DNA from: Deltaproteobacteria bacterium
GTDB lineage: Bacteria > Myxococcota > B64-G9
Direction of reading: 5' to 3'
DNA: 61,902 nucleotides
NCBI GenBank assembly: GCA_030622135.1
Contig: JAUXGL010000003.1
Location: 1 to 61,902 of the forward strand
A program made the position numbers and the translations under genes. This document shows, in pieces, positions 18,194 through 33,038 of this stretch (position 1 is the stretch's first letter; every line of letters starts with the position of its first letter). The notes under the pieces were generated by a model. It had not been told where the DNA came from. It did no database searches and saw nothing but the letters and a program-made list of their open reading frames with translations.

Positions 18194-18323
18194 GACGCCA
18201 ATGTGCTCATCAACCTGATCCATGTGGAAGTTCTTCGCCTTATAAATGCCATTCCTGAAGGGCACCTGGTAGAGCGACTGGAACTCGGTCTCGGTCCACT
18301 TCATCCCACCAACTCCTCAAAAT
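18158..18323 (+). pseudogene. 5' fragment of a PIN-domain (VapC-like) gene, truncated at the island edge
   Basis: MAAVERTRIVVTDANVLINLIHVEVLRLINAIPEGHLV matches a PIN N-terminus (D-x-N-V-L-I). Beyond ~18300 the frame reads antisense to the DUF1016 gene. Confidence 0.55.
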
Positions 18324-19352
18324 TCATTCCATGCCCTCCAGCAGGCTGGAGATTTCTTCAGGTGAGGGCAACTGGCCTTTTAGCTCCTTGGGTAAACGCT
18401 TGATGGTGCGATAGGTCGCGACGCCAACGGGTTTGCGGGCATCGTGCAAGGCGTATTCGACTACCGTCCGGTTTTTTTCTTTGCAGAGTATGATGCCGAT
18501 GGATGGGTTTTCGTCTTCCATGCGCACCTGGCGGTCGAGGGCGGCGAGGTAGAATTGCATCTTGCCCACGAACTCGGGCTGGAACTTGCCGATCTTGAGC
18601 TCGATGGCGACCAGGGCCTTCAAGCGGCGGTGGTATAGCAACAAGTCAATGAAGTATTCGTCGCCGTCCACCTCCAGCCGAAACTGGCTGCCCACGAAGG
18701 CAAACAACCCACCCATGGTGCGAAGGAAATCCTCGATACGGGCAATGAGTGCGCGTTCTAGCTCGCGCTCGGAATGTTCCTCGCCAAGTTCCAGAAAATC
18801 GAAGGTGTATTCGTCCTTGACGGCAAGTTTTGCCTGCGCTTGAAGCTCCGGGGTGAGAGCCTGGTCGAAATTGGTCTGGCCGAGCAGTGTCTTCTCGTAG
18901 CTTTGGTTTTCAACCTGATGCAGCAGGACATTCCTGGACCACCCGAATTTGCGGGTCATGCGGAGGTAGAACTCCCGTTCCTGCGGGTCTGAACAACGCT
19001 GCAAAATAACGAGATTGTGGCTCCAGCCGATTTCTCGCACAAGCAGTGCGAGTTTTTCAGAATCTGTGTACGCTTCGAAAAAGGCCTTCATGCGCCAGAG
19101 GTTGGAGGTGGAAAAACCGCCAACTCCGGGGAATTCAGTTCGCAAATCCTTGGCCAGTTGTTGAACAACCGACTTGCCCCATGTATCTCCGGCCTGCCGC
19201 TCCAGGATCAGCTTGCCGATATCCCAATACAGGCCGACCAGCTCGTTGTTGACCATCTTGAGAGCTTGATACTGGGCGGCACGGACTCGCTCTTTGATCT
19301 CGATCAGCAGGCCTGCGTAGTCTGCGGGAAGCTGGAGTGAGTTTTTGCTCAT
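18324..19352 (-). CDS. DUF1016/YhcG-family PD-(D/E)xK nuclease
   Basis: 342 aa from the ATG at 19352. Family-typical LVGLYWDIG, GFS.SNLWRMKAFF, SWSHNLVIL, and the core FIDLLLYHRRLKALVAIELKIGKF. ATGA overlap with the upstream gene. Confidence 0.85.
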   Translation of the reverse strand: MSKNSLQLPADYAGLLIEIKERVRAAQYQALKMVNNELVGLYWDIGKLILERQAGDTWGKSVVQQLAKDLRTEFPGVGGFSTSNLWRMKAFFEAYTDSEKLALLVREIGWSHNLVILQRCSDPQEREFYLRMTRKFGWSRNVLLHQVENQSYEKTLLGQTNFDQALTPELQAQAKLAVKDEYTFDFLELGEEHSERELERALIARIEDFLRTMGGLFAFVGSQFRLEVDGDEYFIDLLLYHRRLKALVAIELKIGKFQPEFVGKMQFYLAALDRQVRMEDENPSIGIILCKEKNRTVVEYALHDARKPVGVATYRTIKRLPKELKGQLPSPEEISSLLEGME

Positions 19353-19810
19353 CCCACCAACTCCTCGAAGTTGGCGGTGATGGTCTTCGCCAGTTCCGTC
19401 GCTTCCTCGCGGGCGTGGTCGATGACGCGGATCGTGAGCTTCTGCACCTCGTTGATCTGTTTTCGTAGCGAGGCGAAACGGGTAACAAAGGGCAAGAAGC
19501 TCTCGTGGAGTGCCCGCTGCTGGGCGTTGGTTGTCTTGGTGCCCGCGCCTTTCTTGCCGGCCCAAGTCTGCAAGTCCTTGAACAGCGTAATTCGCTCGGA
19601 CGTGAAGGTGACGATCGTTTCGGTTCGCTTCTTCTGGATAGCCTTGAAGTAGAACACCGCGACATCATCGACCCCGTCAGCAGGGTCGTGCTCAAGTACA
19701 ACACGCTGAACCTTGGAGCCTTCTCTGAGAAGCTCTGCGGCTTGGCGCCAGAAGAACAGACCCTGGTAAACATCGCCTTCCGTACGTGAACCTACCTGTC
19801 CGAGCGCCAT
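19349..19810 (-). CDS. small DUF4297-like PD-(D/E)xK nuclease-domain protein
   Basis: 153 aa. EGDVYQGLFFWRQAAELL...VVLEHDPADGVDDVAVFYFKAIQKK resembles the N-terminal nuclease core of DUF4297/Cap4-type endonucleases. The TGATG junction overlaps the upstream stop by 1 nt. Confidence 0.5.
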   Translation of the reverse strand: MALGQVGSRTEGDVYQGLFFWRQAAELLREGSKVQRVVLEHDPADGVDDVAVFYFKAIQKKRTETIVTFTSERITLFKDLQTWAGKKGAGTKTTNAQQRALHESFLPFVTRFASLRKQINEVQKLTIRVIDHAREEATELAKTITANFEELVG

Positions 19811-21405
19811 CACGCACCTCCTGTCGGAAGCTCTTCGGCCAGGCGCGCGAAGAGCTCGATGCAGGCAAAGCAAATCGATGCGGCGTAGGCCGTGGTCAGC
19901 TTGTCCTCGAGGTGTTGACCCAGATCGCCGGCGCTCTTGACGTGCTCGACGAGAATGTAGCTCGACCGCGTGACATGCTTGGCGACCGTGGGTAGGTTGC
20001 CGTACCCACCTGTAATCTCCCGGAGGACCGCACACTGTTGTCCGTCTTGCTTCGGGAACACTCGTTGCGTGCGTTCGATCGGCTTGACCCCGTCCTTCTC
20101 TTCGCCTTTCCAGGTGTCGATCCAGGACTGCGGCCACTTACCAGCATCCAGCTCTGCATCCCAGATGAGCTCAAGCGCCCGACGCGAGATGAGCCGGATC
20201 GAGTTGAGTGTCTCCGCTGGTCCCACCGCCAGCTCCCGGGTGGCTCGCTCGACATAGCCTCGAAGCTTCGCGTCCCCCCCAGGCACTTGCGCCAGTCGGA
20301 GTTCGAGAACTCGTTGGATCTGTTTGGCGTACAGGTCTTCTGTCAGAAACAGCCTCTTGAGCTCGACCGCTTCACTACCATGGCGGAGTGCCATCTTCTC
20401 CATGAAGCGGCAGTTCAGCTTGGGCTTCCTGCTCGGCGTGAGAAAGCCACGCTGGGCGCCAAACAGAGCACGGTCCTGCGGAATCGAATCCGCAGCGGGT
20501 TGTTTGGCGGCGAGCGCATGAAGGTCTCCGCGCACCTCGATCGGGCAGTCATCCCACAGGTGTTGGAGCAGTGCGTAGGCGCCGCCGGCGATGGCCTCCG
20601 CTTTCTCGTTCACTGCTTGTCCATCGATTTTCGAGCCGGAGCCAGCGGTTTCAACGAGACCACGGCACAAAAGGGCAACCAGAGCTGGGTGACCACCGGA
20701 CCAGTTGAAGATCTCCTTGCGCGCCGACGTGGCAAGATTCTCGACGTGAGCGGCGAGCGGAGCCAGGACCATGTCCTGTTCGTTCTCTTCGAATGGCTCC
20801 AGCACAACCACGGGATCTGCAAAGATGTTCCAGAACTCCGAAGCCAGCGAGTCGGGGTTGTTGCAGAGATCCTGAATTCGACGCCTTGTTCCTGTCACAA
20901 AGGTGCATGACGACTTCAACCCGATTTCACGTAGATAGTCCCAGAGGTTACGGCTGATCGTCGGAGAGCTGAGGACGTGATCGAGCCCGTCCATGATCAC
21001 CAGAAGCCGACCGGTGTCAGTGAGGTAGTCGAAGACCCCCGCCAGCACCTGCGGGAGATCCTCTTCGGTTGTTTCGAGGTCGATCAGTTCAGCGGATTCA
21101 TCGTTCGCATTCTTCAGAGCCGCGTGCACTTCATCGAGGAGTCTTTGACGAAACTCGTGATCCGTTCGAGGCGTATGGTAACGCAGGTCTAGAAAGGCCG
21201 ACGTAACATAGCCGCCGCGCTCAGGACCCACGACGCCGGCGAGATGGTGGAGGAAAGTGGTCTTGCCGATGTACGGCGCTCCAACCATGGAGATGTGGTC
21301 GCCTGTCGCCTTGCCGATTCTGCTCAGGACTGCATTCAGCACCTTCTGACGGCCGAGCATAGGTACCTGAGGAGCATTGGCCAGCGGGTAGAGGTCTTTG
21401 GTCAT
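19810..21405 (-). CDS. NACHT-like STAND P-loop NTPase with helical C-terminal domain
   Basis: 531 aa from the ATG at 21405 (ATGA overlap with the upstream gene). Walker A GAPYIGKTT and Walker B LLVIMDGLDHV (NACHT-style DGLD), followed by a helical C-terminal region. Confidence 0.7.
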   Translation of the reverse strand: MTKDLYPLANAPQVPMLGRQKVLNAVLSRIGKATGDHISMVGAPYIGKTTFLHHLAGVVGPERGGYVTSAFLDLRYHTPRTDHEFRQRLLDEVHAALKNANDESAELIDLETTEEDLPQVLAGVFDYLTDTGRLLVIMDGLDHVLSSPTISRNLWDYLREIGLKSSCTFVTGTRRRIQDLCNNPDSLASEFWNIFADPVVVLEPFEENEQDMVLAPLAAHVENLATSARKEIFNWSGGHPALVALLCRGLVETAGSGSKIDGQAVNEKAEAIAGGAYALLQHLWDDCPIEVRGDLHALAAKQPAADSIPQDRALFGAQRGFLTPSRKPKLNCRFMEKMALRHGSEAVELKRLFLTEDLYAKQIQRVLELRLAQVPGGDAKLRGYVERATRELAVGPAETLNSIRLISRRALELIWDAELDAGKWPQSWIDTWKGEEKDGVKPIERTQRVFPKQDGQQCAVLREITGGYGNLPTVAKHVTRSSYILVEHVKSAGDLGQHLEDKLTTAYAASICFACIELFARLAEELPTGGA

Positions 21406-24400
21406 GATTCCGATCTCCCTTCCTGTACCGCGAGCTTGAGCAGCTCCCTGCGGTCGACGTTCCGCTCGATCCACAGACCCATGAGTGGGACCGTGAGCCG
21501 ATAGACATGGAAGGTGCCGTCCGGCACCTGTGAGATCAGCTCCAGCTCCCTCAGGTGATCGAGGTCATCGCGTAGGCCCTCGACGCTCACGACGTCGCCA
21601 TAGCCAAACCCGGAGCCATCACCACTTCCGCTGCCGTATCCGGAGCCATCGCCAAATCCGGAGCCATCACCGCTCCCGCTGCCGTATCCGGAGCCATCGC
21701 CGTATCCGGAGCCATCGCCGCTCCCGCTCCTGCTCCTACCGCCGAATACATCGTCATAACCGTAACCAATACGAGCGGCCTCGAGCTGGTTCTGCAGCAA
21801 ATCGAAGGTGACGGGATCCGGACCATCCTGGAGGTCGTGGCACAGTTGAAGGACGTACCGTGTGCGCTCCGAGCCAGCATAGCCCCACAGCGTGCGAAAG
21901 TGCTCATTGTCACGGATCATGTCCTCGACTGCGGCATCCACCTGCTTCTTCGAAACGTGACGGACCTCCTCCGCTACGGCCCTATCGAACACCCGAGCGC
22001 ACAGGAGTTGGATGAGGAAGGGATGACGTGCACACAGGGTGGTGATCCGCTCGATGGCGTCTGGTTGGTAGGCCAAGCGACCAGCGACAGGCTTTTGGAC
22101 AAGATCCTCCGCGGCACCTTGCGGGAGGACGGTCACGGAGATTGCGAAACCGAAACCAAACAGTACGTTCCAGTACTCCTCGCGCAGCCTTCGGATCCGT
22201 CGTGAGCCGGTGAGAATGCCTGCCATGCCGGTGTTGTTCTGGAACAGGTAGCGGATGTTCTCCGGTACCTGCGGGCTGGTGACGCCTGAGTCGATACCCT
22301 CCTGTAACTTGTCGAACTCATCGAGCATCAAGAGCAGGCGCCTCGGCGCAACGGCATCGACGGCCACGGCTACCAGCGAATCCAGCGATGTGAATGCAGC
22401 TCGCTCCCTAAACCAGGCATTCACCAGGCTGGGCAGCTTCATGTGTACAAAGGCCTTGCGCTTCTTGTCCGGCCACTGGAGCAAATCGTCGGGCGTGCCG
22501 GGGATGGGGAGTGGATATCCAGCGAGGGCACAGTCTCCCGCAAGCGCTCGGCCAATCGTCTTGAAGACCTCGTCGGTGGGAACGCCAACCTTCGTGCTGT
22601 CACCGGCCGAAGCCTGAAAAGAACAGTACACCGGGACGTGGGACGGGAGTGTATCTGGCCGTTGCAAGCTTTTGAGGATAGAGGTCTTGCCGGTCCGCCG
22701 GTTGCCTTCGAGCAGGATGACGTTCGCGACCCCGTCCTGGCTGAGATGCAGCCGCATCTTGTCGAGGATGTCTTCTCGACCGAAAAACATCTCGGGCCTA
22801 TCAACAGGGTTTCCCACGATGTAAGGGCTCGAACCCATCGCTTCGGGCTCAGTGTCCTTGGCTGCGTGGTCTTTAGCCTCGCCGAGGCTCAGGTCGACGG
22901 TGACCTCCCCCTTGACGGGCTCGAGCGTAGCTGTTGTCCCCTTCCAGGACAGCGTGGCTCGAAACGAATCATCGAGTTCATCGGGGATGCCGATCACGTA
23001 GCGCTCTTCCTGCTCTCCAAGCAGCATATCCTCAGAGATCTTGCGCAAAAGCACGGAAGGCGAAGCGCTCAAGGCTGCTTCGATCCGCAACAGGGGCGCA
23101 GAACCCGCATTGCGTACTCCGATCGTTACCGTTCGTCCAAGCTCCGGCGTCTCAAAGAGCACGCCTTGTTTCACCGTCGGGCCGGGGTCAGGCATCTCAA
23201 AGAGTACGTTTTGCCTCGAGTGGGAATTCGGATGGATCTGGAAAGCCTCGATAGCTACATCGCGTACCAGCGAGCGGCTTGCGTGGATCAACAGGAACCA
23301 TGCCGAGTCCAGCGCTCGCTCCAGACCTCGGCTGTGTGCCCGGAGGCCCTCGGGAATGGACCGGCTGGCCTCCTTCAGGGCCGTAACGACGGCCGATTGG
23401 GCGGACACTTGAATGGGCACAGCGGAGGGGGCCACCACATCGGTCGCCACACCCGCCAGACCATCAGCGATCGGATGTAGCGCACTCACCCAGCTCGAAA
23501 TCTCATCGCCGATGTGGAGCCGGATCGGATCGTCCGCCGCAGCGAGCGCACGTGTAAGCCCCTTACCGAACAGCCGGAGCACCGCGACGGGGTCTTCTTG
23601 GGTCTCCGCAGTGCGCGCGTGGGCGAGCGCGTTTCTCAGTTGGCGGACCGCCTGCACAGCGGGGTCAGATTCCAAGTAGGTAACCACCGGGTGAGTGTCT
23701 TCGGTGAGAACCAAGCGAAGCAAAGCGAGAGCGTCGCCTCCGCGATTCTCGATGGCGTCCGCGATGCGCTCCTGGATCGGGATCGGTGGGCGGGGCAGTC
23801 GGATACGCTTGAGAACCGATAGCGAGAGATGTTGAACAGCGATGCCACGGGCCTGAGACTTCATTAGCTCTTGAAGAGCTGGCGATCGCAATAGCCCACC
23901 CAGGTAACGACTGGACACACCCTGCCGCGGCCGAACGACGATGACACCGTTGGTGGCGATGCACCCGACGCTTCCATTGGTTACCGTTCCAACCCGGCCG
24001 ATGCTGCCTGAAGTGGTCACCACGAGGTCGCCCAAGCGCAACACCTGTCCCTCTTTGGCTCGCTGCACAAGCTCTTGGCGTGCGAAAAGCGATGGGGACT
24101 GCACTCGCCGTTCGTTGACATCGCGCACACGGATCAGGCCTCGGGTTTCCTCGGCTGCGTTGATGTCCTCGGTTGTCTTTGCGCGTGTGTAGCCCAAGCC
24201 GTTGCTCAGAGACGCCATCTCGCCCAAGGACACTACATCCACGTCGTCGAGCTGTTCGAGCTCTGTCAGGGTGACCTGAAGCTCTTCTTCCGCCGCAGAC
24301 GGTGCGATGAGGTTCCAGTCGTGTTCGGCAAGCTCTGACAAGCCAACAACGCGAACGGGACCGTCTGTAGATTCACCTCGGACCCAAGAGATAATCCTGT

Positions 24401-25598
24401 CGAGGTCGCGGTCCAGGTTGAGTGTCTCTCCAAGTACGTTAAGATCGACAAAGCGTACCTGCTTTGCGCTGCCGGTCTTGGAGAGCACCAACAGGGAGAT
24501 CTGAACGCCGGTGTAAGGCAGAAAAGACCCGGTGGGCAGTTGGAGAACGGCTTCGAGGTGATGGTCCTCGATCAGCCACTGCCGCAAGGCCTGTTCCGCG
24601 CCGCCACGAAAGAGAAGCCCGTTCGGCACGGCAACGACAGCTCTTCCCCCAGGACGAAGCGAAGCCATGGCGAGTTGGAGAAAGGTCGCCTCCAATGTGT
24701 TTGTCTTGAAGGGGAGATGCTCGTGTACGGTGGCTTCGCGCGGGCTGCGCTTGCCCCAGGGCGGTACCGCAACCACCACGTCGAAGCGCTGGGCATGTCC
24801 ATTTTCCAGCGGGCGCTGAAGCGCATCTCCGAGAACAAGGCCCGGGTGGTGAACGCCAGCCAGCAGAACTCGTACAAGGCCGATGAGGTGAATGGCGGGC
24901 GAGATCTCCACACCGAAAACGCTCTCTGCCTGAACGCGCTCCCATAACTCGGCAGTGTGAAACTCCGCTGATTGCTGCAACTTGTCGATGCACCGGATGA
25001 GGACCTCCCCCGAACCAAAACAAGGGTCAAAGATCCGTTCACCAGGCGCGGGCGCCGCAAGGCGTGCCATTAGCTCTGCCACCGCCGGAGGGGTCGCATA
25101 GGCTCCACTGTAACGAGACTTGGCGACAGTCTTTCGAAGCAGGTCTCCAAATATCTCGCCGGCGCGTCGCTGGTCAGCATTGGTCTCAAAGGGCAGCTCG
25201 GCCACGGCCTGTAGCAGGTCTTGGAGATCACCGTGTGAGCTGAGCGCATCTTTGATGCTTGGATGCGAAAAATCGACAGAGAGGACGTCGGGGCGTGCTT
25301 CAGCCAGGGCGGGCACGAGCTTGTCTTGGACGTAACCCGCGAGATCAGGTCCCTGCAAGCCGGACCAGGTGTCCCATGCGAGTTCACGCGGCAGCATGTG
25401 CTCGTAGTTCTCGTCGTTGAAGAGCGCGATAGCCTCGCGCTCGGCATCGATCAGGTCGACCCAGCGCAGCAGAAGCAACACCGCCAACTGCGGCAGGGTC
25501 TCGGTCCACGGGTCGACGGCGTTGCCCCTGCGGGCATCGGCCGCCGACCACAAAGCGTGGCTGAGCCTGTCTTCGATGCTGGTGGGGGTGGGCTGCAT
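21402..25598 (-). CDS. fusion protein: HsdM-like N6-adenine methylase module + single HsdS-type TRD + STAND/Arch-type ATPase + low-complexity G/S/D/Y insert
   Basis: 1398 aa from the ATG at 25598. HsdM_N-like LWSAADARRG..LLLLRW. Motif I FDPCFGSGE (25005-25031). Motif IV reads VPPW. TRD-like LGEMASL.NG..., ...ATNGVIVVRP, ...HLSLSVLKRIRLPRPPIPIQERI. FFGRE + Walker A GNRRTGKTS (22680-22706). Walker B LLLMLDEFD (22311-22337). Confidence 0.8.
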   Translation of the reverse strand: MQPTPTSIEDRLSHALWSAADARRGNAVDPWTETLPQLAVLLLLRWVDLIDAEREAIALFNDENYEHMLPRELAWDTWSGLQGPDLAGYVQDKLVPALAEARPDVLSVDFSHPSIKDALSSHGDLQDLLQAVAELPFETNADQRRAGEIFGDLLRKTVAKSRYSGAYATPPAVAELMARLAAPAPGERIFDPCFGSGEVLIRCIDKLQQSAEFHTAELWERVQAESVFGVEISPAIHLIGLVRVLLAGVHHPGLVLGDALQRPLENGHAQRFDVVVAVPPWGKRSPREATVHEHLPFKTNTLEATFLQLAMASLRPGGRAVVAVPNGLLFRGGAEQALRQWLIEDHHLEAVLQLPTGSFLPYTGVQISLLVLSKTGSAKQVRFVDLNVLGETLNLDRDLDRIISWVRGESTDGPVRVVGLSELAEHDWNLIAPSAAEEELQVTLTELEQLDDVDVVSLGEMASLSNGLGYTRAKTTEDINAAEETRGLIRVRDVNERRVQSPSLFARQELVQRAKEGQVLRLGDLVVTTSGSIGRVGTVTNGSVGCIATNGVIVVRPRQGVSSRYLGGLLRSPALQELMKSQARGIAVQHLSLSVLKRIRLPRPPIPIQERIADAIENRGGDALALLRLVLTEDTHPVVTYLESDPAVQAVRQLRNALAHARTAETQEDPVAVLRLFGKGLTRALAAADDPIRLHIGDEISSWVSALHPIADGLAGVATDVVAPSAVPIQVSAQSAVVTALKEASRSIPEGLRAHSRGLERALDSAWFLLIHASRSLVRDVAIEAFQIHPNSHSRQNVLFEMPDPGPTVKQGVLFETPELGRTVTIGVRNAGSAPLLRIEAALSASPSVLLRKISEDMLLGEQEERYVIGIPDELDDSFRATLSWKGTTATLEPVKGEVTVDLSLGEAKDHAAKDTEPEAMGSSPYIVGNPVDRPEMFFGREDILDKMRLHLSQDGVANVILLEGNRRTGKTSILKSLQRPDTLPSHVPVYCSFQASAGDSTKVGVPTDEVFKTIGRALAGDCALAGYPLPIPGTPDDLLQWPDKKRKAFVHMKLPSLVNAWFRERAAFTSLDSLVAVAVDAVAPRRLLLMLDEFDKLQEGIDSGVTSPQVPENIRYLFQNNTGMAGILTGSRRIRRLREEYWNVLFGFGFAISVTVLPQGAAEDLVQKPVAGRLAYQPDAIERITTLCARHPFLIQLLCARVFDRAVAEEVRHVSKKQVDAAVEDMIRDNEHFRTLWGYAGSERTRYVLQLCHDLQDGPDPVTFDLLQNQLEAARIGYGYDDVFGGRSRSGSGDGSGYGDGSGYGSGSGDGSGFGDGSGYGSGSGDGSGFGYGDVVSVEGLRDDLDHLRELELISQVPDGTFHVYRLTVPLMGLWIERNVDRRELLKLAVQEGRSES
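21597..21743. repeat. in-frame 48-nt tandem repeat (about 2.75 units) encoding SGSGDGSG(Y/F)GDGSGYG
   Basis: The peptide GGRSRSGSGDGSGYGDGSGYGSGSGDGSGFGDGSGYGSGSGDGSGFGYG is read directly from the ORF. The DNA shows repeating ccggagccatc(a/g)cc units. Confidence 0.85.
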
Positions 25599-25602: not shown

Positions 25603-26778
25603 TCAGAGCTCTCCCGCAAAGGCTTTGCGGAGGATGGCTGCGCGGAAAGTTGCCGAATCATCAATGCCGTACTCTTTGCAGAGCGCAGTTGACGCTCGCC
25701 AAGCCTCGTCCAAGCGCTCGATCAAGACTTGTTGCACTGCTAGTTTGGGAACTGGAATCTCGACTGACCGAAGCCTTTTTCCAGAGATCTTCACCATGCT
25801 CTGGCTACTACCCGTTGCTCTTTCTTGAATCTGTTTGCGAGTGTCAGGAAATCGCAATGTATACATTAGGTACTTAGGAAGAATGATCGCATCATTTGCG
25901 CAGAGACGAATCATCAAGTCTGGATAGATAACTCGGTCTTCGACTGCGGCCTCAGCAATAGCCGATAACCCGACGAATTCGACAGTGTTGGCGCGCGAAA
26001 TGAATACGTCGCCAATAGCAACTTGGTATTTCTTGGCAACTCCGTCATCCATTTCGACCCACTTGAACTTTGACACGTCCAGATGTGGTTCGCGTACAGA
26101 TGCCAACGTCAGGATGCGCCCTGTCCCATGATCGCCCAATGATTTGATTGACCTGCCGTTTCGACTGTCGACCAGGATGTTGTCCATGGTCATCATGTTC
26201 GTTCCGGCATCAGTCTCCGCGCGATGCAGAAAGGAGCCGAATAGCGCCTTTGCCTCATCTTCTGCCTTATTGCGCAACCTCCGCAGCTCATCCACTCGCT
26301 CCATGGCATCACGAATTCGCGTCACGATGCGCTGTTGTTCATTGAGTGGGGGAGTGGGTATCTCAATCGACTCCAACTTCCCCTTTGTTATGTGTCGCAA
26401 TCCGACCCCGCCATGGGCCAGCTCGATCATCTCATCAAGCTGGGAGTTGACCGCATGCAAGAAAAACAGTGGGAGTATTCTCTTCGGGTCAACAAGGACT
26501 TTGAAGATGTGTTGATTGAGGACGGCATTACCGCCATGCCATTGGAAACACCCAAACGACGTGCCAGGCGTGCCCGACCATGAAAGCAGAATGTCACCGC
26601 TTTCGATAATGTGCTTATCCTTGACCTCTCCATTGTAGCGATTGAACGGCTTTGATGGATTGTTGAGGTTCTGTATCCGGACGATCTTCAGTCCTTCTTT
26701 GGTCCAGTCAGATGGCTTGAAGGCTCGTCCGTTGACAAGGTCGCATAGGTCACCAATGTGGGTACGCCTCCAGTTCAT
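25603..26778 (-). CDS. hsdS: type I restriction-modification specificity subunit
   Basis: 391 aa with two TRDs separated by the conserved spacer PPLNEQQRIVTRIRDAMERVDELRRL. C-terminal conserved helix ...AILRKAFAGEL. ATGA overlap with hsdM. Confidence 0.9.
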   Translation of the reverse strand: MNWRRTHIGDLCDLVNGRAFKPSDWTKEGLKIVRIQNLNNPSKPFNRYNGEVKDKHIIESGDILLSWSGTPGTSFGCFQWHGGNAVLNQHIFKVLVDPKRILPLFFLHAVNSQLDEMIELAHGGVGLRHITKGKLESIEIPTPPLNEQQRIVTRIRDAMERVDELRRLRNKAEDEAKALFGSFLHRAETDAGTNMMTMDNILVDSRNGRSIKSLGDHGTGRILTLASVREPHLDVSKFKWVEMDDGVAKKYQVAIGDVFISRANTVEFVGLSAIAEAAVEDRVIYPDLMIRLCANDAIILPKYLMYTLRFPDTRKQIQERATGSSQSMVKISGKRLRSVEIPVPKLAVQQVLIERLDEAWRASTALCKEYGIDDSATFRAAILRKAFAGEL

Positions 26779-28295
26779 ACCTCCCCCTCCAACATCTCCT
26801 CTAACTCCCCAAGAAGCTCGAAGATCCGCTCTTCTTTCGTCTTGATGGATCGCACCAGCTCCAGCGCCGGAACGTGCTCGTAGTCGTCTTTCTTGTTGGG
26901 GTTACGAGCCGTGAGGTCCCAGCCATCTTCCTCAAAGGCAACCTCATCGAACTCGACCACCCATGAGTTGTCGCCCTCGACCTGCTTCTTCCGCTTCTTG
27001 AGAAAATCGGGGAGTTGGCTGCCCTCGATTGGTTTGCGCGTCTGCTTCAACTCGAAGCCGTCGTTGGTCAGCTCGTAGAACCAGATCTTGTTTGTGGTAG
27101 CGGCCTTCTTCGGTCGGTCAAAAAAGATGACGTTGGTCTTTACGCCGGTGTAGGGCAAGAATGCTCCGGCCGGCAGAGATAGGATGGTGTGCACCTTGAA
27201 CTGGGTTAGCAGCTTCTTGCGCACCTTGGCATCCGGACCGCCGCGAAACAGCACGCCCTCGGGAAGGATCACTCCCGCTCGTCCGCCCTTGGCCAGGTTG
27301 GTCATGATGTGCTGCAAGAAGAGGATCTCGGTCGCGGCCGACTGGATGGTGAAGTTGCCCTGGGAGTCCCGGTCCATCTTGCCGCCATAGGGCGGATTGG
27401 AGAGGATCACAGAAAAACGGCGCTGCTCGGCCACGTTGTTCTCGTGGCGCTCCAGGGTGTCGGCCAGGGCCAGCTTGGCCTTGTCGATACCGTGTAGGAT
27501 CATGTTCATGACCCCGAGCAAGTAGGAAAGCGGCTTGAGCTCGTTGCCGGCGAAGGTGTCTCTTTGAAAACGCTCGAAGTCTTCGCCGCTCATGTTGGAG
27601 TCGTGGTGCTTGATGTACTCTGCCGACTCGAAGAGAAAGCCGGCCGTCCCCATGCAGGGATCGTAAACGCGGTCACCAAGACGTGGTTTGACCACTTCGA
27701 CCATGGCCTTGACGATGTGGCGTTGGGTGTAAAACTCGCCCGCGTACCCGGCGGAGTCACCGGCAACGTCCTTGAGCAGGCGCTCGTAGATCTCCGACAG
27801 CTCGATAACGTCGGCCTGGCGGCTGAAATCGATCCGTTCGACCTGACTGACCACGCGGGCAAAGCTGCCGGGGCGCCGGCTGTGATTGCGGATCGTGCTG
27901 AAGATGCGCTGGAATTGGAGGCCAAGGGTATCGTCGCCGAGGGTCGTGAGCTTCTCGAAGAGGTCGGCGTTGACAAAACGAAAGACCTCTTCGGGAGTCT
28001 TCAGGCCTTTGACAGCCTTACTCTTGCCGGTGAGCGCGCGAGTCCACGTCGACCAACGGTACTTGCCATTGAGCCGCCTCTCATAGGGCGTGTCCTCGAA
28101 GGCGGACTCTTCTTCTCGGCGGTCCTCCGATGCCTCGAAGGCTTTCAGGAAAAATAGCCAGGAGAGTTGCTCGACGTAATTTCGCGGCTCGACACCGTCG
28201 CTGTTGAGCTGATCGCAGGCATTGTTGACCGCCTGCCGTACATTGTCGCGTCGTGCCTCGGCTCCGTTTCCTGGTTTTGTGGTCTTTGAAGTCAT
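26775..28295 (-). CDS. hsdM: type I restriction-modification DNA methyltransferase subunit
   Basis: 506 aa. HsdM_N-like YVEQLSWLFFLKAF, motif I VYDPCMGTAGFL and canonical motif IV ILSNPPYGG. Confidence 0.92.
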   Translation of the reverse strand: MTSKTTKPGNGAEARRDNVRQAVNNACDQLNSDGVEPRNYVEQLSWLFFLKAFEASEDRREEESAFEDTPYERRLNGKYRWSTWTRALTGKSKAVKGLKTPEEVFRFVNADLFEKLTTLGDDTLGLQFQRIFSTIRNHSRRPGSFARVVSQVERIDFSRQADVIELSEIYERLLKDVAGDSAGYAGEFYTQRHIVKAMVEVVKPRLGDRVYDPCMGTAGFLFESAEYIKHHDSNMSGEDFERFQRDTFAGNELKPLSYLLGVMNMILHGIDKAKLALADTLERHENNVAEQRRFSVILSNPPYGGKMDRDSQGNFTIQSAATEILFLQHIMTNLAKGGRAGVILPEGVLFRGGPDAKVRKKLLTQFKVHTILSLPAGAFLPYTGVKTNVIFFDRPKKAATTNKIWFYELTNDGFELKQTRKPIEGSQLPDFLKKRKKQVEGDNSWVVEFDEVAFEEDGWDLTARNPNKKDDYEHVPALELVRSIKTKEERIFELLGELEEMLEGEV

Positions 28296-28307: not shown

Positions 28308-30602
28308 TCATGCGCTAAGCGGAACGTAGAGATGGCGCTTGACCTCCTCGAGGTCACTGCGCAGTTGCTTGGCGTTTCCGTAGCGTCTGAGCAACTGCGT
28401 GAAGCTGCCAAAGCGACCTACGAACTGCGGGGTGCGGAACGTGCGGGCATCTTCGAGATCATCGACGCCAAACAGGGTGTAGTGGTCGAGGCAGGTCTCC
28501 CAGAATTGCAGGCGAATCCGGTCTTCCTGCGAGATGTTCTCCTCGCCGATATGCGCGAGCAGCCAGTCCTGGTCGTACTCCCAGAAGTGGGCGACACGAT
28601 CCCGTCGCTCGGGAACCCTGACCAGATCAAAGGCTACCTTTGACAAGACATCGACATCGTCCGTCTCCGGGAGGTCGAAGAAGTGGCGAAAGGCGGCTAC
28701 GTGGACATCCTGGTCACGAAGCTCAGCCCGGAGCTCCTGGCGCGTTCGCTTGTCAATCCATGCGTCCAGCAGCGCCTTGAGGTCAGGCGTTACGAGCGTT
28801 CGTATCGCGCCCTTTGATTGCTCCTTGTATTCCTCGAATGGGATCTTGCGTCCATCCGCCAGGCACACGAAGCGGCGGTTGTCAGAGAGCTCGATGGTGA
28901 CTCCCTGCTCGACCGGAATGTCTTTGGGCTCGCTTTTCTTGCGAGGTTTCTTCGCGGGCTTTCGCGACTTGTCCTGATTGGCCGGGTGGCCGTCGAACTC
29001 GGAGTCCTCGAGCGTGCTCGCGCCAGAGTAATCCCAGATCGTGAAGTAGCGCTTGTCGACCTCTGGGTCGTCGCACAATCGAGTGCCGCGACCCTTCATC
29101 TGTTTGTAGAGAATGGAGCTGCGGAGGGGGCGTACAAAGACGATGTTCTTGACGTCAGGGGCGTCGTATCCCGTGGTCAGTAGATCGACGGTGACGGCGA
29201 CGCGAGGATTTGTGCGGCCGACTTCCTGAAAGTTCCGCTCCAGCTGGTGGGAGTTCCTCTCGGCGCGGGTAATTCGCGCGGCGTATTCGGGGTCTCCGGT
29301 GATCCGTCTGAGCTCCTGCGCCATGAAAGCCGCGTGAGTGTCATTGACGCAGAAGACGATGCTCTTCTCGTTCTCGAGCCCGTACCTCTTGAGCTGAGCG
29401 TAGAGGTCTTCCGCGATCCACTTGGTGCGATCCGGCAGAGACACATCACGCTCAAAGTGTTTGGTCTCGTATCGGCGCCCATCGGGGCCGTCGTAACCCT
29501 CTTCGTCGACGTTGGTGATGCGCTGCTCGAGAAGGTAGGGCACCAGGTAGCCATCTTCGATGGCCTGTTTGAGCGAATAGGTGAAAATGGGCTCGCCGAA
29601 ATACTCATAGCTGTCCCGACGGAGTTCCTCGGGGCTAAGGTCCCGGCCCTCTTTGTAAAGCTCACGCGGAGTGGCCGTCAGGCCTAACTGGTAGGCCTTA
29701 CCAAAGTGCTCCAAGACCCCGAACCAGTCGCCAAATCCAGAGCGATGGCACTCATCGATGACGATGAGATCAAAGAAGTCGGCCTCGTAGTGTTCATAGA
29801 GCTTTTTGCCGTCCAGCTCCTCGTCGAGGTTCTGGTAGTTGGCGAAGAACACCTTACCAACTCGGTGGGTCCCGGCTTTGACAGCGTTCTTGTCAATGGT
29901 GACGCGCTCGTCCGTTGGGAAACCATTGAACGCTCGGTAGGCCTGACCCTTGAGGCTGTTGCGATCCGTGAGAAAGAGGACGTTTCCTCGTGGAAGGATA
30001 TCGGTTTGCAGGAGCTTCCACACGAGTTGAAAGACCGTGAAGGTCTTGCCCGTGCCCGTGGCCATGAGCAACAAGACCCGGCGGTTGTCTTGCGAGAACT
30101 GGTACAGCGCCTCAGTGATGGCGCGCTCTTGATACGGACGGACCTTCTTGCGCGAGATCTGATCGACGTGCCAGTCGGCAAGGAAGGCGTCATTCCAACT
30201 GCGGGGGATCATGTTGAGCCCCATATAATGGAGAACATCGCCAGGTGGAGGAGGCGTATCCTGGGTGTGGTACTCGCCAGTCTTGTTGTCAGTGACGATG
30301 TACTCGTGGCCGTTGCTCGCGATGGAGAAGCGGAGGCTCAGACGCTGTGCGTAGCGCGAGCCTTGCTGCATCCCGTCAGATGCGTCTTCGTCCTCCCTCT
30401 TCGCTTCAAGAATGGCCAGAGGCATACCATAGAGCTTGAGGACGTAGTCGGCGACGATGTGCTGATGCTCATCGTACATTCGTTCGCCGGAGAGATTCAC
30501 TCGTCCGGGGCCAATCATCACCTCACGAGACCATGTCCAGCCTGCAGCTTCGAGCGCAGGCTCGATAAGCTCTCGGCAGGTTTGGTTCTCGTTGCGGCTC
30601 AT
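28308..30602 (-). CDS. hsdR: type I restriction endonuclease subunit R
   Basis: 764 aa. N-terminal nuclease region ETCRELIEPALEAAGW...ADYVL...AILEAK. SF2 helicase motifs LLLMATGTGKT and VIDECHR. GAGGAG SD 5 nt upstream of the ATG. Confidence 0.9.
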   Translation of the reverse strand: MSRNENQTCRELIEPALEAAGWTWSREVMIGPGRVNLSGERMYDEHQHIVADYVLKLYGMPLAILEAKREDEDASDGMQQGSRYAQRLSLRFSIASNGHEYIVTDNKTGEYHTQDTPPPPGDVLHYMGLNMIPRSWNDAFLADWHVDQISRKKVRPYQERAITEALYQFSQDNRRVLLLMATGTGKTFTVFQLVWKLLQTDILPRGNVLFLTDRNSLKGQAYRAFNGFPTDERVTIDKNAVKAGTHRVGKVFFANYQNLDEELDGKKLYEHYEADFFDLIVIDECHRSGFGDWFGVLEHFGKAYQLGLTATPRELYKEGRDLSPEELRRDSYEYFGEPIFTYSLKQAIEDGYLVPYLLEQRITNVDEEGYDGPDGRRYETKHFERDVSLPDRTKWIAEDLYAQLKRYGLENEKSIVFCVNDTHAAFMAQELRRITGDPEYAARITRAERNSHQLERNFQEVGRTNPRVAVTVDLLTTGYDAPDVKNIVFVRPLRSSILYKQMKGRGTRLCDDPEVDKRYFTIWDYSGASTLEDSEFDGHPANQDKSRKPAKKPRKKSEPKDIPVEQGVTIELSDNRRFVCLADGRKIPFEEYKEQSKGAIRTLVTPDLKALLDAWIDKRTRQELRAELRDQDVHVAAFRHFFDLPETDDVDVLSKVAFDLVRVPERRDRVAHFWEYDQDWLLAHIGEENISQEDRIRLQFWETCLDHYTLFGVDDLEDARTFRTPQFVGRFGSFTQLLRRYGNAKQLRSDLEEVKRHLYVPLSA

Positions 30603-30613
30603 CGTGACTCCTC

Positions 30614-30631
30614 GGTGACTAGCGTGTCACC
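30614..30631 (-). promoter_or_regulatory. 6-bp inverted repeat in the hsdR leader (GGTGAC-N6-GTCACC)
   Basis: Read directly. Lies between the predicted sigma-54 start site and the hsdR SD, so it is either an operator or a 5'-UTR hairpin. Confidence 0.4.
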
Positions 30632-30641
30632 CAGTCTAAGT

Positions 30642-30657
30642 TGCAGATGTCGTGCCA
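30642..30657 (-). promoter_or_regulatory. sigma-54 (-24/-12) promoter driving hsdR and the downstream operon
   Basis: The minus strand reads TGA-TGGCACG-ACAT-CTGCA, against the consensus TGGCACG-N4-TTGCW. It starts immediately after the activator gene's stop and lies about 40 nt upstream of the hsdR ATG. Confidence 0.75.
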
Positions 30658-32175
30658 TCATCTCTCCACCCCATATTTCTTGAGCCAGTTCGTTAGCGTC
30701 TGATAGCTCGGGAGGCCCACCAGCTCGGCGGCCTTGGTCTTGTTTCCGCTCGCCTCATCGATGGCGCGCCCCAGATAATGCCTGGCTATTTCTGTTAGTA
30801 AATCCGGTAGGTTGAACTTGCCACCAAGCTGCCGCCCGAACGCCTCCGACCGGCTTGCGAAGCCGGAAGGGAGCAGAGCCTCTCGCGCATCTTCGACGGT
30901 GATCGTCGCGCTGTCGGACCAGATCGCTGCACGTCGGAGCGTGTTGAGCAACTCCCTGACATTGCCGGGCCAGGGATGCGAAAGCATAAGATTTCTTGCC
31001 CCAGCGGAAAGTTTCTTGTGCTTGAACTCAGGTTCGACCATAGCCTCTTCATTCACCTGCTGGAGAAGTCGGTCGATGAGTAGTCCAAGGTCGCCAGCGC
31101 GATCGCGAAGCGGTGGGATATTCAGGACGGCAACCGCCAGTCGGTAAAAGAGGTCTTCACGGAAGCGGCCGGCTGCAATCTCCTCGGTGAGGGTCCTATT
31201 CGTCGCGGCAATGATGCGGACGTTGACCTTGGCGGCTTTGGTCGACCCGAGACGAACAACCTCTCCCTCTTGGATGACCCGGAGCAGCTTCACCTGGGCC
31301 GAACCGGGCAGATCCCCGAGTTCATCGAGAAACAGGGTCCCGGTGTTCGCAGCCTCGAAGTAGCCCTTCCGCGGTTCATTCGCGCCAGTAAACGCTCCCT
31401 TCTCGTGCCCAAAGAGCTCTGACTCCACGAGGTCGTCGGGTATTGCCCCGCAGTTGACCGCTACGAACGGCGCCTGGCTCCGAGTGCTCGCCTGATGGAT
31501 CGCGCGCGCGATCATCTCCTTGCCTGTTCCTGACTCTCCCTCGATCAAGACGGGTACGTTGCGAACCGCTACTCGCCGCGCTCGTTGGATGAGTCGGTCC
31601 ATCACCCGGCTTCGATAGATGATATCGGCGAACTCGGGCGCCTCAGGCGACTCGGCGCCGCTCAGCTCCCGCAAGCGTTCATCGCGTTCGCGGAGCAGAT
31701 CTGGCAGGAAGTCGACGGCGATATCGAACGGGACCTCGGCGGTGCGCACGCCATGGTCCCTTGAAGACTCAATCAGCTCTGCCGGGAACCGTGTCTTGGC
31801 GAGTAGTATCCAGACCGCCGCCATCGCCGGCGTGCCCGGGCTCAAGTGGAAGCTGAGCGAGGCCTCTTTCGCGCGTCCGTCCAGAGCTGCGCTGATCGTG
31901 CGGACGGCAGCCTTGTAGATCTCCCCAAAGTTAGTCGGGCCAGAACGCGGCTCGAATTGTAGGTCGATCTTTGCTGCCGTTCGAGCCCGCACCCACGCGG
32001 CGTAGGGTTTGACCTCCGCCTTGGGATAATCGTGAAGAAGAATGATGCGGTCGAACGCAAGCGCATCCACTGCCTGAGCAATGGGCCCGACTCCGACCGT
32101 CTCCTCCTCCGTTCGTGCGCGGAGATCCGTTCGGCCGACCCAGCTGACAAGAACCTTCTCCATGCCGAAAGACAT
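30658..32175 (-). CDS. RtcR-family sigma-54-dependent transcriptional activator (CARF-type N-domain + AAA+ + Fis-type HTH)
   Basis: The N-domain [32 protein letters not shown] parallels E. coli RtcR's YLIHITTGTHVAQICWFLLAEARYLPARLIQSS. AAA+ motifs GESGTGKE, the GAFTGA loop and FLDELGDL. C-terminal [26 protein letters not shown]. Confidence 0.85.
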
Positions 32176-32239
32176 ACAAGAAATCTACTGAAAACACAAG
32201 ATCTCTTGCAGGCTGCCACGTGTGCAGGTGTACGGAATG

Positions 32240-33025: not shown

Positions 33026-33038
33026 GGGAGGAGAGCAC

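What the first reader, a model, noticed from the sequence alone, without database searches (positions are those of the whole stretch)
30603..30657. Near-consensus sigma-54 promoter directly upstream of hsdR, with a palindromic leader
On the minus strand, the activator gene's TGA is followed immediately by TGGCACG-ACAT-CTGCA. Against the consensus TGGCACG-N4-TTGCW, the GG and GC dinucleotides are correctly spaced. Downstream lie GGTGAC-N6-GTCACC (30614-30631), a GAGGAG SD and the hsdR ATG at 30602. Restriction-modification operons are generally thought to be constitutively or C-protein controlled. Strict enhancer-dependent (off-by-default) sigma-54 control of a restriction nuclease and the downstream effectors would be an unusual regulatory mode.
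Basis: partly seen in the sequence, partly recalled or inferred. Interest (0 to 1): 0.75.

Follow-up and report, generated by a model that had tools for sequence, protein, structure and literature searches.

The report
Sensor-controlled sigma-54 switch for restriction operon
A real sigma-54 promoter sits directly after the stop codon of a CARF-sensor activator gene and faces a type I restriction-modification operon; this conserved, portable switch was predicted in earlier genome surveys but has not been tested experimentally.

Summary
On the minus strand the activator's TGA (30660-30658) is followed at once by TGGCACG-ACAT-CTGCA (30657-30642). Then come GGTGAC-N6-GTCACC, a GAGGAG ribosome-binding site and the hsdR ATG (30602).

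The motif is not a chance match. In 72 orthologous loci from many phyla, 62 carry a match of at least 10/12 next to the activator stop (0.63 expected). In 43 it starts on the very next base.

The activator is a CARF-AAA+-HTH enhancer-binding protein of the catalogued RtcR_PspF2 family. It is not an RtcR orthologue. In 52 of 72 loci the first downstream gene is an hsdR.

Makarova et al. 2014 and Bell et al. 2024 already noted this association and predicted sigma-54 control. The regulatory mode is therefore real and untested, but not new in concept.

I found no description of the cis-architecture in the papers I searched:
- Two dyad sites are embedded in the activator's coding sequence, kept by rare codons. 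They are a candidate enhancer.
- The same dyads overlap the activator's own sigma-70-like promoter, which appears to give a leaderless mRNA.

The leader palindrome is not conserved and is not statistically notable. "Strictly off by default" is doubtful, because no terminator separates the activator gene from hsdR.

The parts
32194..32208 (-). Distal operator dyad U1 (CAAGAGATCTTGTGT). It overlaps the -35-like hexamer TTGTGT (32199-32194) of the activator's own sigma-70-type promoter.
   Evidence: PWM hit of 14.4 bits. The same motif sits at the same position in most orthologous loci.
32177..32191 (-). Proximal operator dyad U2 (TCAGTAGATTTCTTG on the gene strand). It abuts the -10-like hexamer TATGTC (32176-32171), 17 nt after the -35.
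   Evidence: PWM hit of 17.9 bits. Family consensus acAAGa.ttCTTGTA...T, with the start codon 16-18 nt after the C of CTTGTA in most of 59 aligned loci.
30658..32163 (-). CARF-AAA+-HTH enhancer-binding protein (RtcR_PspF2 family), 501 aa if read from the ATG at 32163. The ORF-list start at 32175 lies inside the -10 hexamer and is probably not used. In 505-aa numbering: CARF about residues 5-150, Sigma54_activat 185-350 (with GAFTGA), HTH_8 462-501.
   Evidence: Pfam; NCBIfam RtcR model 343 bits, below its 650-bit cut-off; PADLOC RtcR_PspF2--CARF_AAA_HTH E = 8.7e-200 over the full length; AlphaFold model pLDDT 85 whose PDB matches at E <= 0.001 are all CARF proteins; start codon from the alignment of orthologues.
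31004..31018 (-). Intragenic dyad I1 (CAAGAAACTTTCCGC; core AGAA-N3-TTCC in the window, TTCT in the family consensus), inside codons 387-391 of the activator.
   Evidence: Rare codons conserved across 73 orthologues; PWM hit of 23.9 bits.
30984..30998 (-). Intragenic dyad I2 (CAAGAAATCTTATGC), 20 nt after I1 and about 330-350 bp upstream of the sigma-54 promoter. I1 and I2 together are the candidate enhancer (UAS).
   Evidence: Also present in a distant plasmid homologue (L081) and absent from E. coli rtcR.
30642..30657 (-). Sigma-54 promoter TGGCACGACATCTGCA (GG at -25/-24, GC at -13/-12), starting on the first base after the activator's TGA. Predicted transcript start about 30631 (+/-2).
   Evidence: Position conserved in 43/72 loci exactly and in 62/72 nearby.
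30614..30631 (-). Palindrome GGTGAC-N6-GTCACC, beginning at the predicted +1. It could form a 5'-terminal stem-loop on the mRNA. It is specific to this locus.
   Evidence: Not significant (z = -1.1) and not conserved.
30608..30613 (-). GAGGAG Shine-Dalgarno sequence, 5 nt before the hsdR ATG.
28308..30602 (-). hsdR, type I restriction subunit R (764 aa).
   Evidence: Pfam ResIII, HSDR_N, EcoEI_R_C; PADLOC REase_I. The N-terminus MSRNE.QTCRELIEP is shared with L019/L020/L046/L050/L077.
26775..28295 (-). hsdM (506 aa), starting 12 nt after the hsdR stop.
25603..26778 (-). hsdS (391 aa); its start overlaps the hsdM stop.
21402..25597 (-). Fusion protein of an HsdM-like methyltransferase, one S-type target-recognition domain and a STAND-like ATPase (weak AAA_16 match). 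The ATG at 25597 is 5 nt after the hsdS stop.
   Evidence: In six related loci this gene directly follows the activator.
19810..21474 (-). STAND-type ATPase (AAA_16/nSTAND2, both matches below Pfam's cut-offs), partner of the fusion protein. Its start is uncertain.
18324..19351 (-). YhcG/DUF1016 PD-(D/E)XK nuclease (PADLOC PDC-S02), the last same-strand gene of the island.
   Evidence: It is found downstream of the R-M genes in several related loci.

Best explanation
The 16-nt motif is a functional sigma-54 promoter. It belongs to a conserved, self-contained regulatory cassette. The proposed steps follow, each marked as shown, supported or inferred.

(a) Activator expression (supported by comparison). 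The CARF-AAA+-HTH activator is made from its own sigma-70-like promoter, apparently as a leaderless mRNA. Two dyad sites (AAGA-N2-3-TCTT) overlap the -35 and -10 hexamers, which suggests negative autoregulation.

(b) Basal expression of the operon (inferred). No terminator follows the activator gene, so this transcript should continue into hsdR-hsdM-hsdS and the downstream genes. That would supply enough methyltransferase for self-protection.

(c) Induction (inferred by analogy with RtcR and other CARF proteins). A nucleotide-type signal of infection or RNA damage binds the CARF domain. Candidates are RNA ends with a 2',3'-cyclic phosphate or a cyclic oligonucleotide. Binding relieves inhibition of the AAA+ ring.

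(d) Enhancer (element shown by comparison, function inferred). The activated protein assembles on a second pair of the same dyads. This pair lies inside its own coding sequence, about 330-350 bp upstream of the promoter, and would act as the enhancer.

(e) Promoter activation (promoter shown by comparison, activity inferred). The activator remodels sigma-54 RNA polymerase waiting at the promoter that abuts its stop codon. Transcription starting near 30631 then boosts the type I R-M genes, the methyltransferase-STAND pair and the YhcG nuclease.

Sensor, enhancer and promoter all lie within or at the edge of one gene. The cassette can therefore be placed in front of different defence cargos, and that is what related loci show.
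For: Promoter:
- One mismatch to consensus with exact GG/GC spacing.
- 62/72 orthologous loci have a match of at least 10/12 beside the stop codon against 0.63 expected; 43 lie exactly at offset 0.
- In the 62 matching loci (chosen by their match, so the consensus positions are high by construction) the N4 spacer and the downstream flank carry almost no information.
- A distant plasmid homologue has the same layout.

Activator:
- Sigma54_activat with GAFTGA, plus HTH_8.
- Full-length hit to PADLOC RtcR_PspF2--CARF_AAA_HTH, E = 8.7e-200.
- The N-terminal model (pLDDT 85) matches Csm6/Can2/Card1/Cam1 CARF domains, best E = 3e-7, TM 0.64.

Cargo:
- hsdR is the first gene in 52/72 loci, in three HsdR size classes.
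- The methyltransferase-STAND pair is the direct cargo in six loci.

Embedded element, codons 389-396 versus gene-wide use of the same codon:
- CTT 86% vs 14%
- TCT 77% vs 8%
- GCA 94% vs 12%
- AGA 67% vs 5%
- CTT 95% vs 14%
Median GC3 of these genes is 0.75. The element consists of two dyads 20 nt apart.

Same motif at the activator's 5' end:
- 37 PWM hits in the 14 kb upstream of activator starts against 68 in about 1 Mb elsewhere, clustered at -15 and -34.
- In the window these are the best non-training hits in 62 kb.
- Consensus -35 TTGTGn, 17 nt, -10 TAnnnT, with the start codon 16-18 nt after the C of CTTGTA in most loci.

Other:
- No terminator-like site lies between the activator and hsdR.
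- Published predictions agree: PMC4012209 and PMC11090510.
Against: - There are no transcript, binding or genetic data for this or any family member in the papers I could search.
- rpoN is not in the window and the source genome is unknown, so the presence of sigma-54 is assumed. It rests on the apparent myxobacterial affinity and on a second sigma-54-like site at 61267.
- The window's promoter has C instead of T at -15. That position is T in 55 of the 62 matching loci.
- An enhancer at about -350 inside a coding sequence is unusual. Binding of this activator to the dyads is inferred only from co-occurrence.
- The upstream dyads are not evident in the distant Azotobacter homologue.
- The CARF ligand is unknown. 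Makarova et al. note that the RtcR-like CARF mostly lacks the conserved basic residue.
- Full induction of R together with M and S raises no obvious benefit unless basal levels are limiting.
Confidence: 0.8

Rival explanations
1. The sigma-54 promoter is real but contributes little. hsdRMS is expressed mainly by read-through from the activator's sigma-70 promoter or from internal promoters, so the R-M system is in practice constitutive.
For: There is no spacer and no terminator between the activator stop and the promoter. R-M systems need continuous methylation (established knowledge). The window's promoter deviates at -15.
Against: A promoter that contributed nothing would not keep its consensus and its exact position across phyla and across unrelated cargo types.
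Confidence: 0.12
2. The motif is a chance match to the sigma-54 consensus in GC-rich DNA.
For: In the window alone, 9 of 100 shuffles give two or more sites with at most 1 mismatch.
Against: 62/72 orthologous loci carry the motif next to the stop codon against 0.63 expected. 43 have it at the identical position, and it sits next to a sigma-54 activator gene.
Confidence: 0.01
3. The palindrome GGTGAC-N6-GTCACC is the main control element, for example an operator for a C-protein-like repressor or for the neighbouring HTH-peptidase protein, and the sigma-54 motif is secondary.
For: A perfect 6-N6-6 dyad lies between the promoter and the ribosome-binding site. The divergent neighbour encodes an HTH_3 protein with a weak match to the PADLOC control-protein model.
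Against: The palindrome occurs once in the window, with no second copy near the HTH gene. It is absent from the closest relative and from all other loci. The HTH-M78 neighbour is not conserved with the cassette. No small C gene is present.
Confidence: 0.05
4. The conserved rare-codon stretch at codons 387-397 is not an enhancer. It could be an RNA-level or translational element (a programmed pause, an RNase or sRNA site), or one half of a repression loop formed with the upstream operators.
For: It lies unusually far from the promoter for a UAS. Rare codons can slow translation (established knowledge). The upstream pair clearly overlaps the sigma-70 promoter, which fits repression.
Against: Specific nucleotides are conserved, not merely codon rarity. 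The same dyad motif recurs in untranslated DNA upstream of the gene with the same 20-nt pair spacing. No other candidate UAS was found in the last 60 codons or in the leader.
Confidence: 0.3

Closest known systems
RtcR / rtcBA of E. coli and Salmonella (CARF-AAA+-HTH activator of a sigma-54 RNA-repair operon)
   Same: Same three-domain architecture. It gives the best NCBIfam hit, covering the N-terminal domain. The sigma-54 promoter is nearly identical in sequence: E. coli rtcBA has TGGCACGACGGTTGCA and the window has TGGCACGACATCTGCA. The CARF domain is presumed to gate the AAA+ ring.
   Different: Only about 27% identical overall. It scores 343 bits against the 650-bit equivalog cut-off. The cargo is a type I R-M system plus STAND proteins, not rtcBA. 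The genes are co-directional with the promoter abutting the stop codon, whereas rtcR is divergent from rtcBA. The embedded dyad element is absent from E. coli rtcR.
R-M-associated RtcR-like CARF/NtrC-type regulators (Makarova et al. 2014; PADLOC model RtcR_PspF2--CARF_AAA_HTH)
   Same: This is the family the activator belongs to: a full-length HMM match, E = 8.7e-200. [quoted passage not shown]
   Different: Nothing differs in kind. The held papers do not describe the promoter position, the embedded dyads or the leaderless autoregulated promoter. No experiment is reported.
RtcR-homologue superoperons with type I R-M and CoCoNuT systems (Bell et al. 2024)
   Same: An RtcR homologue sits at the 5' end of a long same-strand array of defence genes that includes HsdR/M/S.
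   Different: No McrBC/CoCoNuT genes are in this window. The array ends with a methyltransferase-STAND pair and a YhcG nuclease instead.
PspF / pspA (sigma-54 activator that represses its own promoter through its UAS)
   Same: A Fis-type HTH sigma-54 activator whose binding sites overlap its own sigma-70 promoter, giving negative autoregulation (established knowledge). The dyads over the -35 and -10 hexamers suggest the same arrangement here.
   Different: PspF has no sensor domain and is controlled by PspA. Its UAS lies in a divergent intergenic region, not inside a coding sequence.
C-protein-controlled R-M systems
   Same: Both place an R-M system under a dedicated transcription factor encoded next to it.
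   Different: No small C gene or repeated C-box is present. Control here would be by a sigma-54 enhancer-binding protein with a ligand sensor, responding to a signal rather than timing establishment.

Membership tests
Sigma-54 (-24/-12) promoter | GG and GC doublets exactly 10 nt apart within TGGCACG-N4-TTGCW | tested here: met
   TGGCACGACATCTGCA at 30657-30642, 11 of 12 specified positions.
Sigma-54 (-24/-12) promoter | Correct orientation and distance upstream of a gene, with a cognate enhancer-binding protein encoded nearby | tested here: met
   The GC doublet is 41 nt upstream of the hsdR ATG. The activator gene ends on the base before the motif.
Sigma-54 (-24/-12) promoter | Conservation of the motif in orthologous loci beyond chance | tested here: met
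   62/72 loci against 0.63 expected; 43 at the identical offset. In the matching loci the spacer and flank carry almost no information.
Sigma-54 (-24/-12) promoter | rpoN present in the genome; transcript start 11-12 nt after the GC; dependence on rpoN and on the activator | not testable with these tools
   rpoN is not in the window and the source genome was not identified. No expression data are available.
Sigma-54 (-24/-12) promoter | Upstream activator sequence bound by the activator | tested here: inconclusive
   A candidate exists: conserved tandem dyads at 31018-30984. Binding has not been shown.
RtcR_PspF2 CARF-AAA+-HTH regulators | N-terminal CARF (Rossmann-like) sensor domain | tested here: met
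   PADLOC model covers residues 7-504. The AlphaFold model's PDB matches at E <= 0.001 are all CARF proteins.
RtcR_PspF2 CARF-AAA+-HTH regulators | Sigma-54 interaction AAA+ domain with GAFTGA, and a C-terminal Fis-type HTH | tested here: met
   PF00158 E = 2.4e-71; GAFTGA present in the translation; PF02954 at its 22-bit cut-off.
RtcR_PspF2 CARF-AAA+-HTH regulators | Genomic association with R-M or other defence genes rather than rtcBA | tested here: met
   hsdRMS is directly downstream here and hsdR is the first gene in 52/72 relatives.
RtcR (RNA-repair activator, NCBIfam NF038308 equivalog) | Score above the equivalog cut-off (650 bits) | tested here: not met
   343 bits.
RtcR (RNA-repair activator, NCBIfam NF038308 equivalog) | Controls an adjacent rtcB/rtcA operon | tested here: not met
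   No rtcA or rtcB in the window.
Type I restriction-modification system | HsdR (helicase/nuclease), HsdM (N6-adenine methyltransferase) and HsdS with two target-recognition domains, in one operon | tested here: met
   Pfam and PADLOC hits for all three. The genes are 12 nt apart or overlapping.
C-protein-controlled R-M system | Small HTH C gene preceding or overlapping the R gene, with repeated C-boxes upstream | tested here: not met
   There is no small HTH gene in the operon. The single palindrome has no second copy. The only HTH_3 protein nearby is a 400-540 aa HTH-M78 protein on the other strand, and it is not conserved with the cassette.
CoCoNuT superoperon (Bell et al. 2024) | McrB/McrC-like CnuB/CnuC and coiled-coil nuclease genes downstream of the RtcR homologue | tested here: not met
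   Same-strand genes down to 18324 are R-M, methyltransferase-STAND, STAND and YhcG. Housekeeping genes follow.

The most novel reading that the evidence does not exclude
The CARF activator gene is a complete, portable induction cassette. Its own coding sequence carries the enhancer as two dyads held by rare codons. Its stop codon is fused to the sigma-54 promoter. Its leaderless sigma-70 promoter is shut off by the same dyads. Whatever defence operon lands behind it, whether type I R-M of three classes or a methyltransferase-STAND pair, then becomes inducible by an infection-derived nucleotide signal. This would be the first R-M systems shown to be transcriptionally induced by a second-messenger-type sensor, with an enhancer embedded in an open reading frame.
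Probability: 0.45. Interest if true: 0.7.

Novelty: new member of a known kind. Interest (0 to 1): 0.5.

Why it matters
R-M systems are usually treated as constitutive or as C-protein-timed. A widespread family in which a CARF sensor drives them through sigma-54 would make innate DNA restriction part of an inducible, signal-dependent response, as CARF effectors are in type III CRISPR.

The idea has been in the literature since 2014 without an experiment. The exact promoter, predicted start site, candidate enhancer and operator sites defined here turn it into a set of simple tests: point mutations, synonymous recoding, a CARF deletion and ligand screens.

The compact cassette could also be useful as a portable, tightly gated expression switch.

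Tried and rejected
- Conserved leader hairpin. Folding the window leader gives z = -1.1 and a 141-nt context gives z = -0.8. Leaders of 62 loci have mean z +0.46. Rejected.
- Second copy of the GGTGAC...GTCACC palindrome. None in the window.
- UAS in the last 60 codons or the HTH-coding region. Only weak synonymous bias at a few Asn/Gln/Ser codons. Not convincing.
- Generic repeat search around the gene. It gave many chance pairs. Family D4 made sense only after the codon analysis.
- Conserved upstream partner genes (97-aa ORF, YdjM-like, HTH-M78). Not conserved with the cassette.
- CoCoNuT or McrBC genes in the window. Absent.
- Sigma-70 consensus scan of 25-35 kb. No hits; the activator's promoter was found only by comparison.
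- PDB sequence search with the N-terminal domain. No meaningful hit; the fold search was needed.
- PDB sequence searches with the STAND parts of the two downstream proteins. Uninformative.
- Exact-sequence look-up of the activator to identify the source genome. Not on record.
- The 2020 CARF classification paper (NAR gkaa635 / PMC7498327) is not held, so what it says about RtcR_PspF2 could not be checked.
- Viral contigs. Only 7 distant relatives, so the cassette is not notably phage-borne.

Full report
**1. The observation**

Reading the minus strand gives ...GTGGAGAGA TGA TGGCACG ACAT CTGCA ACTTAGACTGG GTGAC ACGCTA GTCACC GAGGAG TCACG ATG AGC CGC AAC GAG.
- activator stop at 30660-30658
- TGGCACG-N4-CTGCA at 30657-30642
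- palindrome at 30631-30614
- GAGGAG at 30613-30608
- hsdR ATG at 30602

The GG (30656/55) and GC (30644/43) doublets have the canonical spacing. The only departure from TGGCACG-N4-TTGCW is C for T at -15.

Inside the window the motif is only mildly unusual: 2 sites with at most 1 mismatch against 0.54 expected. The window alone therefore cannot decide the question.

**2. The genes**

Pfam confirms the following:
- a 505-aa sigma-54 activator (Sigma54_activat E = 2e-71, AAA_lid_14, HTH_8)
- HsdR (764 aa), HsdM (506 aa) and HsdS (391 aa), spaced 12 nt apart or overlapping
- a roughly 1400-aa fusion of an HsdM-like methyltransferase, one S-type domain and a weak AAA_16/STAND module
- a 554-aa protein with weak AAA_16/nSTAND2 matches
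- a YhcG/DUF1016 nuclease

- The best NCBIfam hit is the RtcR model, covering residues 31-493, but at 343 bits against a 650-bit cut-off.
- PADLOC's model "RtcR_PspF2--CARF_AAA_HTH" matches residues 7-504 with E = 8.7e-200.
- An AlphaFold model of the domain (pLDDT 85) finds CARF proteins in the PDB: Csm6, Can2, Card1, Cam1, Cad1 and ring nucleases. All 38 matches at E <= 0.001 are of this kind; the best has E = 3e-7 and TM 0.64.

The activator is therefore a CARF-sensor enhancer-binding protein. It is related to RtcR but is not its orthologue: about 27% identical to E. coli RtcR.

**3. Comparative test of the promoter**

A search with the N-terminal domain found 425 proteins. A scan of species-representative genomes found at least 444 encoded relatives, of which 80 loci were retrieved. 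They come from Myxococcota, Planctomycetota, Gemmatimonadota, Latescibacterota, Acidobacteriota, Desulfobacterota, Magnetococcales, Gammaproteobacteria and others.

Seventy-two loci have a full-length activator of about 505 aa, 60-75% identical to the window's.

In 62 of these 72, a match of at least 10/12 to the sigma-54 consensus lies within -25..+60 of the stop codon. The background rate in the same loci predicts 0.63. In 43 loci the T of TGGCAC is the first base after the stop.

Among the 62 matching loci, which were chosen by their match, the four spacer positions and the downstream flank carry about 0.1 bit each. A more distant plasmid homologue (Azotobacter pAcX50d, 45% identity) has TGA-aac-CTGGCACGGTCCTCGCT followed by an hsdR.

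This is what a functional -24/-12 promoter should look like. Chance is excluded.

**4. What the promoter drives**

The first downstream gene is an HsdR homologue in 52 of 72 loci. They fall into three divergent size classes: 28 long (about 1140 aa), 17 of about 912 aa, and 7 of the window's 760-aa type. HsdM and HsdS usually follow, and often an OLD-type or AAA_15/DUF3696-like ATPase as judged by eye from the sequences.

In six loci the methyltransferase-STAND fusion and its STAND partner follow the activator directly. The window carries both cargos in tandem.

The cassette is thus the constant element and the cargo varies. All recognisable cargos are defence-type genes.

**5. The leader palindrome**

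With C(-12) at 30643, the predicted start is about 30631, the first G of GGTGAC. The mRNA could begin with a 6-bp stem-loop.

The fold is not better than shuffles (z = -1.1). The closest relatives lack the palindrome. Leaders of 62 loci are, if anything, less structured than shuffles (mean z +0.46). No second copy exists in the window.

I treat it as locus-specific and probably incidental. At most it is a 5' stabilising hairpin.

**6. Search for the enhancer**

The promoter touches the stop codon, so any upstream activator sequence must lie inside the activator gene. The last 60 codons show nothing convincing.

A codon-level scan of the whole gene picked out codon 393 as an extreme outlier. 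It lies in a run, codons 387-396 ([10 protein letters not shown]), where specific and mostly rare codons are conserved across all phyla:

| Codon position | Codon | Use at this position | Use elsewhere in these genes |
|---|---|---|---|
| 389 | CTT | 86% | 14% |
| 390 | TCT | 77% | 8% |
| 393 | GCA | 94% | 12% |
| 394 | AGA | 67% | 5% |
| 395 | AAT | 72% | 28% |
| 396 | CTT | 95% | 14% |

The median GC3 of these genes is 0.75.

The DNA consensus is AAGAAnCTTTCTGCnGGCGCAAGAAATCTTCT. This is two AGAA-N3-TTCT dyads 20 nt apart. In the window they lie at 31018-31004 and 30998-30984.

The element is also present in the distant Azotobacter homologue. It is absent from E. coli rtcR, whose promoter lies in the divergent rtcR-rtcB intergenic region where its binding sites would be expected.

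**7. The same motif at the activator's own promoter**

A weight matrix built from the internal sites finds 37 further hits in the 200 nt upstream of the 72 activator starts (14 kb). It finds 68 hits in the remaining roughly 1 Mb. The upstream hits cluster at about -15 and -34.

In the window the two best non-training hits in 62 kb are at 32208-32194 and 32191-32177.

Aligning 59 loci gives a.AAGa...cTTGTg-N5-acAAGa.ttCTTGTA...T. This reads as a -35-like TTGTGn, a 17-nt spacer and a -10-like TAnnnT, each overlapped by a dyad. The start codon lies 16-18 nt after the C of CTTGTA in most loci, and no Shine-Dalgarno sequence is visible.

The simplest reading is a leaderless activator mRNA from a sigma-70-type promoter that the activator itself can occlude, as PspF and NtrC do at their own promoters (established knowledge).

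In the window the ATG at 32175 lies inside the -10 hexamer. The real start is almost certainly the ATG at 32163 (MEKVLVSW..., matching the M[RK]K[VI]L[VI]SW starts of the orthologues).

**8. Mechanism**

Shown by sequence and comparison:
- the promoter
- the CARF-AAA+-HTH activator
- the conserved dyads in two places
- the sigma-70-like promoter
- the absence of any terminator between activator and cargo

Inferred:
- The dyads are bound by the activator's HTH. It is the only protein conserved with them.
- The internal pair is the enhancer, about 330-350 bp from the promoter, a distance at which DNA looping needs no bending protein.
- The upstream pair mediates autorepression.
- Read-through supplies basal R-M expression and the sigma-54 promoter adds an induced burst.
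- The CARF domain senses a nucleotide-type signal. By analogy with RtcR this could be 2',3'-cyclic-phosphate RNA ends (PMC11090510). Makarova et al. point out that this branch mostly lacks the usual basic pocket residue, so the ligand may differ.

"Strictly off by default" is therefore unlikely. It would also be hard to reconcile with self-methylation.

**9. Comparison with what is known**

Makarova et al. [quoted passage not shown] Bell et al. 2024 described RtcR homologues heading same-strand superoperons that include type I R-M and CoCoNuT systems. The family has a PADLOC model.

Full-text searches found no experimental study of sigma-54-dependent R-M expression. They also found no description of the promoter position, the embedded dyads or the leaderless promoter. 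The 2020 CARF classification paper could not be read.

**10. Verdict**

The core interpretation, a sigma-54 promoter under the adjacent activator, is strongly supported by comparison. The palindrome and the "off by default" reading are not supported, and the claim of an unprecedented mode is overstated.

The locus is a new member of a known, computationally predicted kind. The cis-architecture defined here appears to be undescribed and makes the old prediction directly testable.

Noticed in passing
window 61267-61282 (+): A second near-consensus sigma-54 motif, cTGGCACCGTTGTTGCTa, lies in an AT-richer intergenic region about 85 nt upstream of an ATG (61367) that has an AGGAG ribosome-binding site. 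That gene encodes a small protein with a hydrophobic, signal-like N-terminus. This suggests the organism uses sigma-54 elsewhere.
   Followed up: partly
window 32573-34304 (+): Divergent from the activator lie a 150-aa membrane-like ORF and an HTH_3 + peptidase M78 (ImmA/IrrE) protein. The latter hits many PADLOC RmrA models (best E = 5e-23). RmrA is, from memory, the antitoxin of the RosmerTA defence module, so this may be such a module. The pair is not conserved with the cassette in other loci.
   Followed up: partly
window 21402-25597 and 19810-21474 (-): The methyltransferase + half-S + STAND-like fusion (about 1400 aa) and its 554-aa STAND partner recur as a pair at 33-38% identity. In six loci they follow the CARF activator's promoter directly. 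The 554-aa protein has no PADLOC hit, and PDB sequence searches were uninformative. This may be an unnamed defence system.
   Followed up: partly
window 18300-19365 (-): The yhcG (DUF1016 nuclease, PADLOC PDC-S02) gene is flanked by an 18-nt direct repeat, GAGGAGTTGGTGGGATGA. Each copy ends an ORF with ...FEELVG* and starts the next gene. This looks like a cassette insertion or recombination scar. The ORF after it (from 18302) resembles, by eye, the N-terminus of an HsdS.
   Followed up: no
L004-L007, L010-L016, L021-L023, L041, L064, L065, L070, L072, L075 (just after the activator stop): In the loci with long HsdR, a conserved in-frame ATG sits 29 nt after the stop codon. That is within about 2 nt of the predicted sigma-54 start and 15-24 nt upstream of the MKSQNFEFL start. 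This suggests leaderless hsdR mRNAs made from a sigma-54 promoter.
   Followed up: partly
L004-L032 and others (promoter position 15): In 20 of the 62 matching loci, including many of the long-HsdR type, the -12 element reads TTGAA instead of TTGCA. The normally near-invariant C(-12) is an A. Whether this changes activator dependence is unknown.
   Followed up: no
window 3489-5236 (+): An AAA_21/AAA_15 (AbiEii-like) ATPase gene is followed by an overlapping 202-aa ORF. This may be another small defence module, far from the island.
   Followed up: no
L081 (Azotobacter chroococcum plasmid pAcX50d) 9001-18444: A mobilizable plasmid carries a more distant member of the cassette: activator, sigma-54 motif, then a stretch with no annotated gene (probably a decayed hsdR), fragmented hsdM, hsdS and an AAA ATPase. 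The cassette therefore also travels on plasmids and can outlive its cargo.
   Followed up: partly
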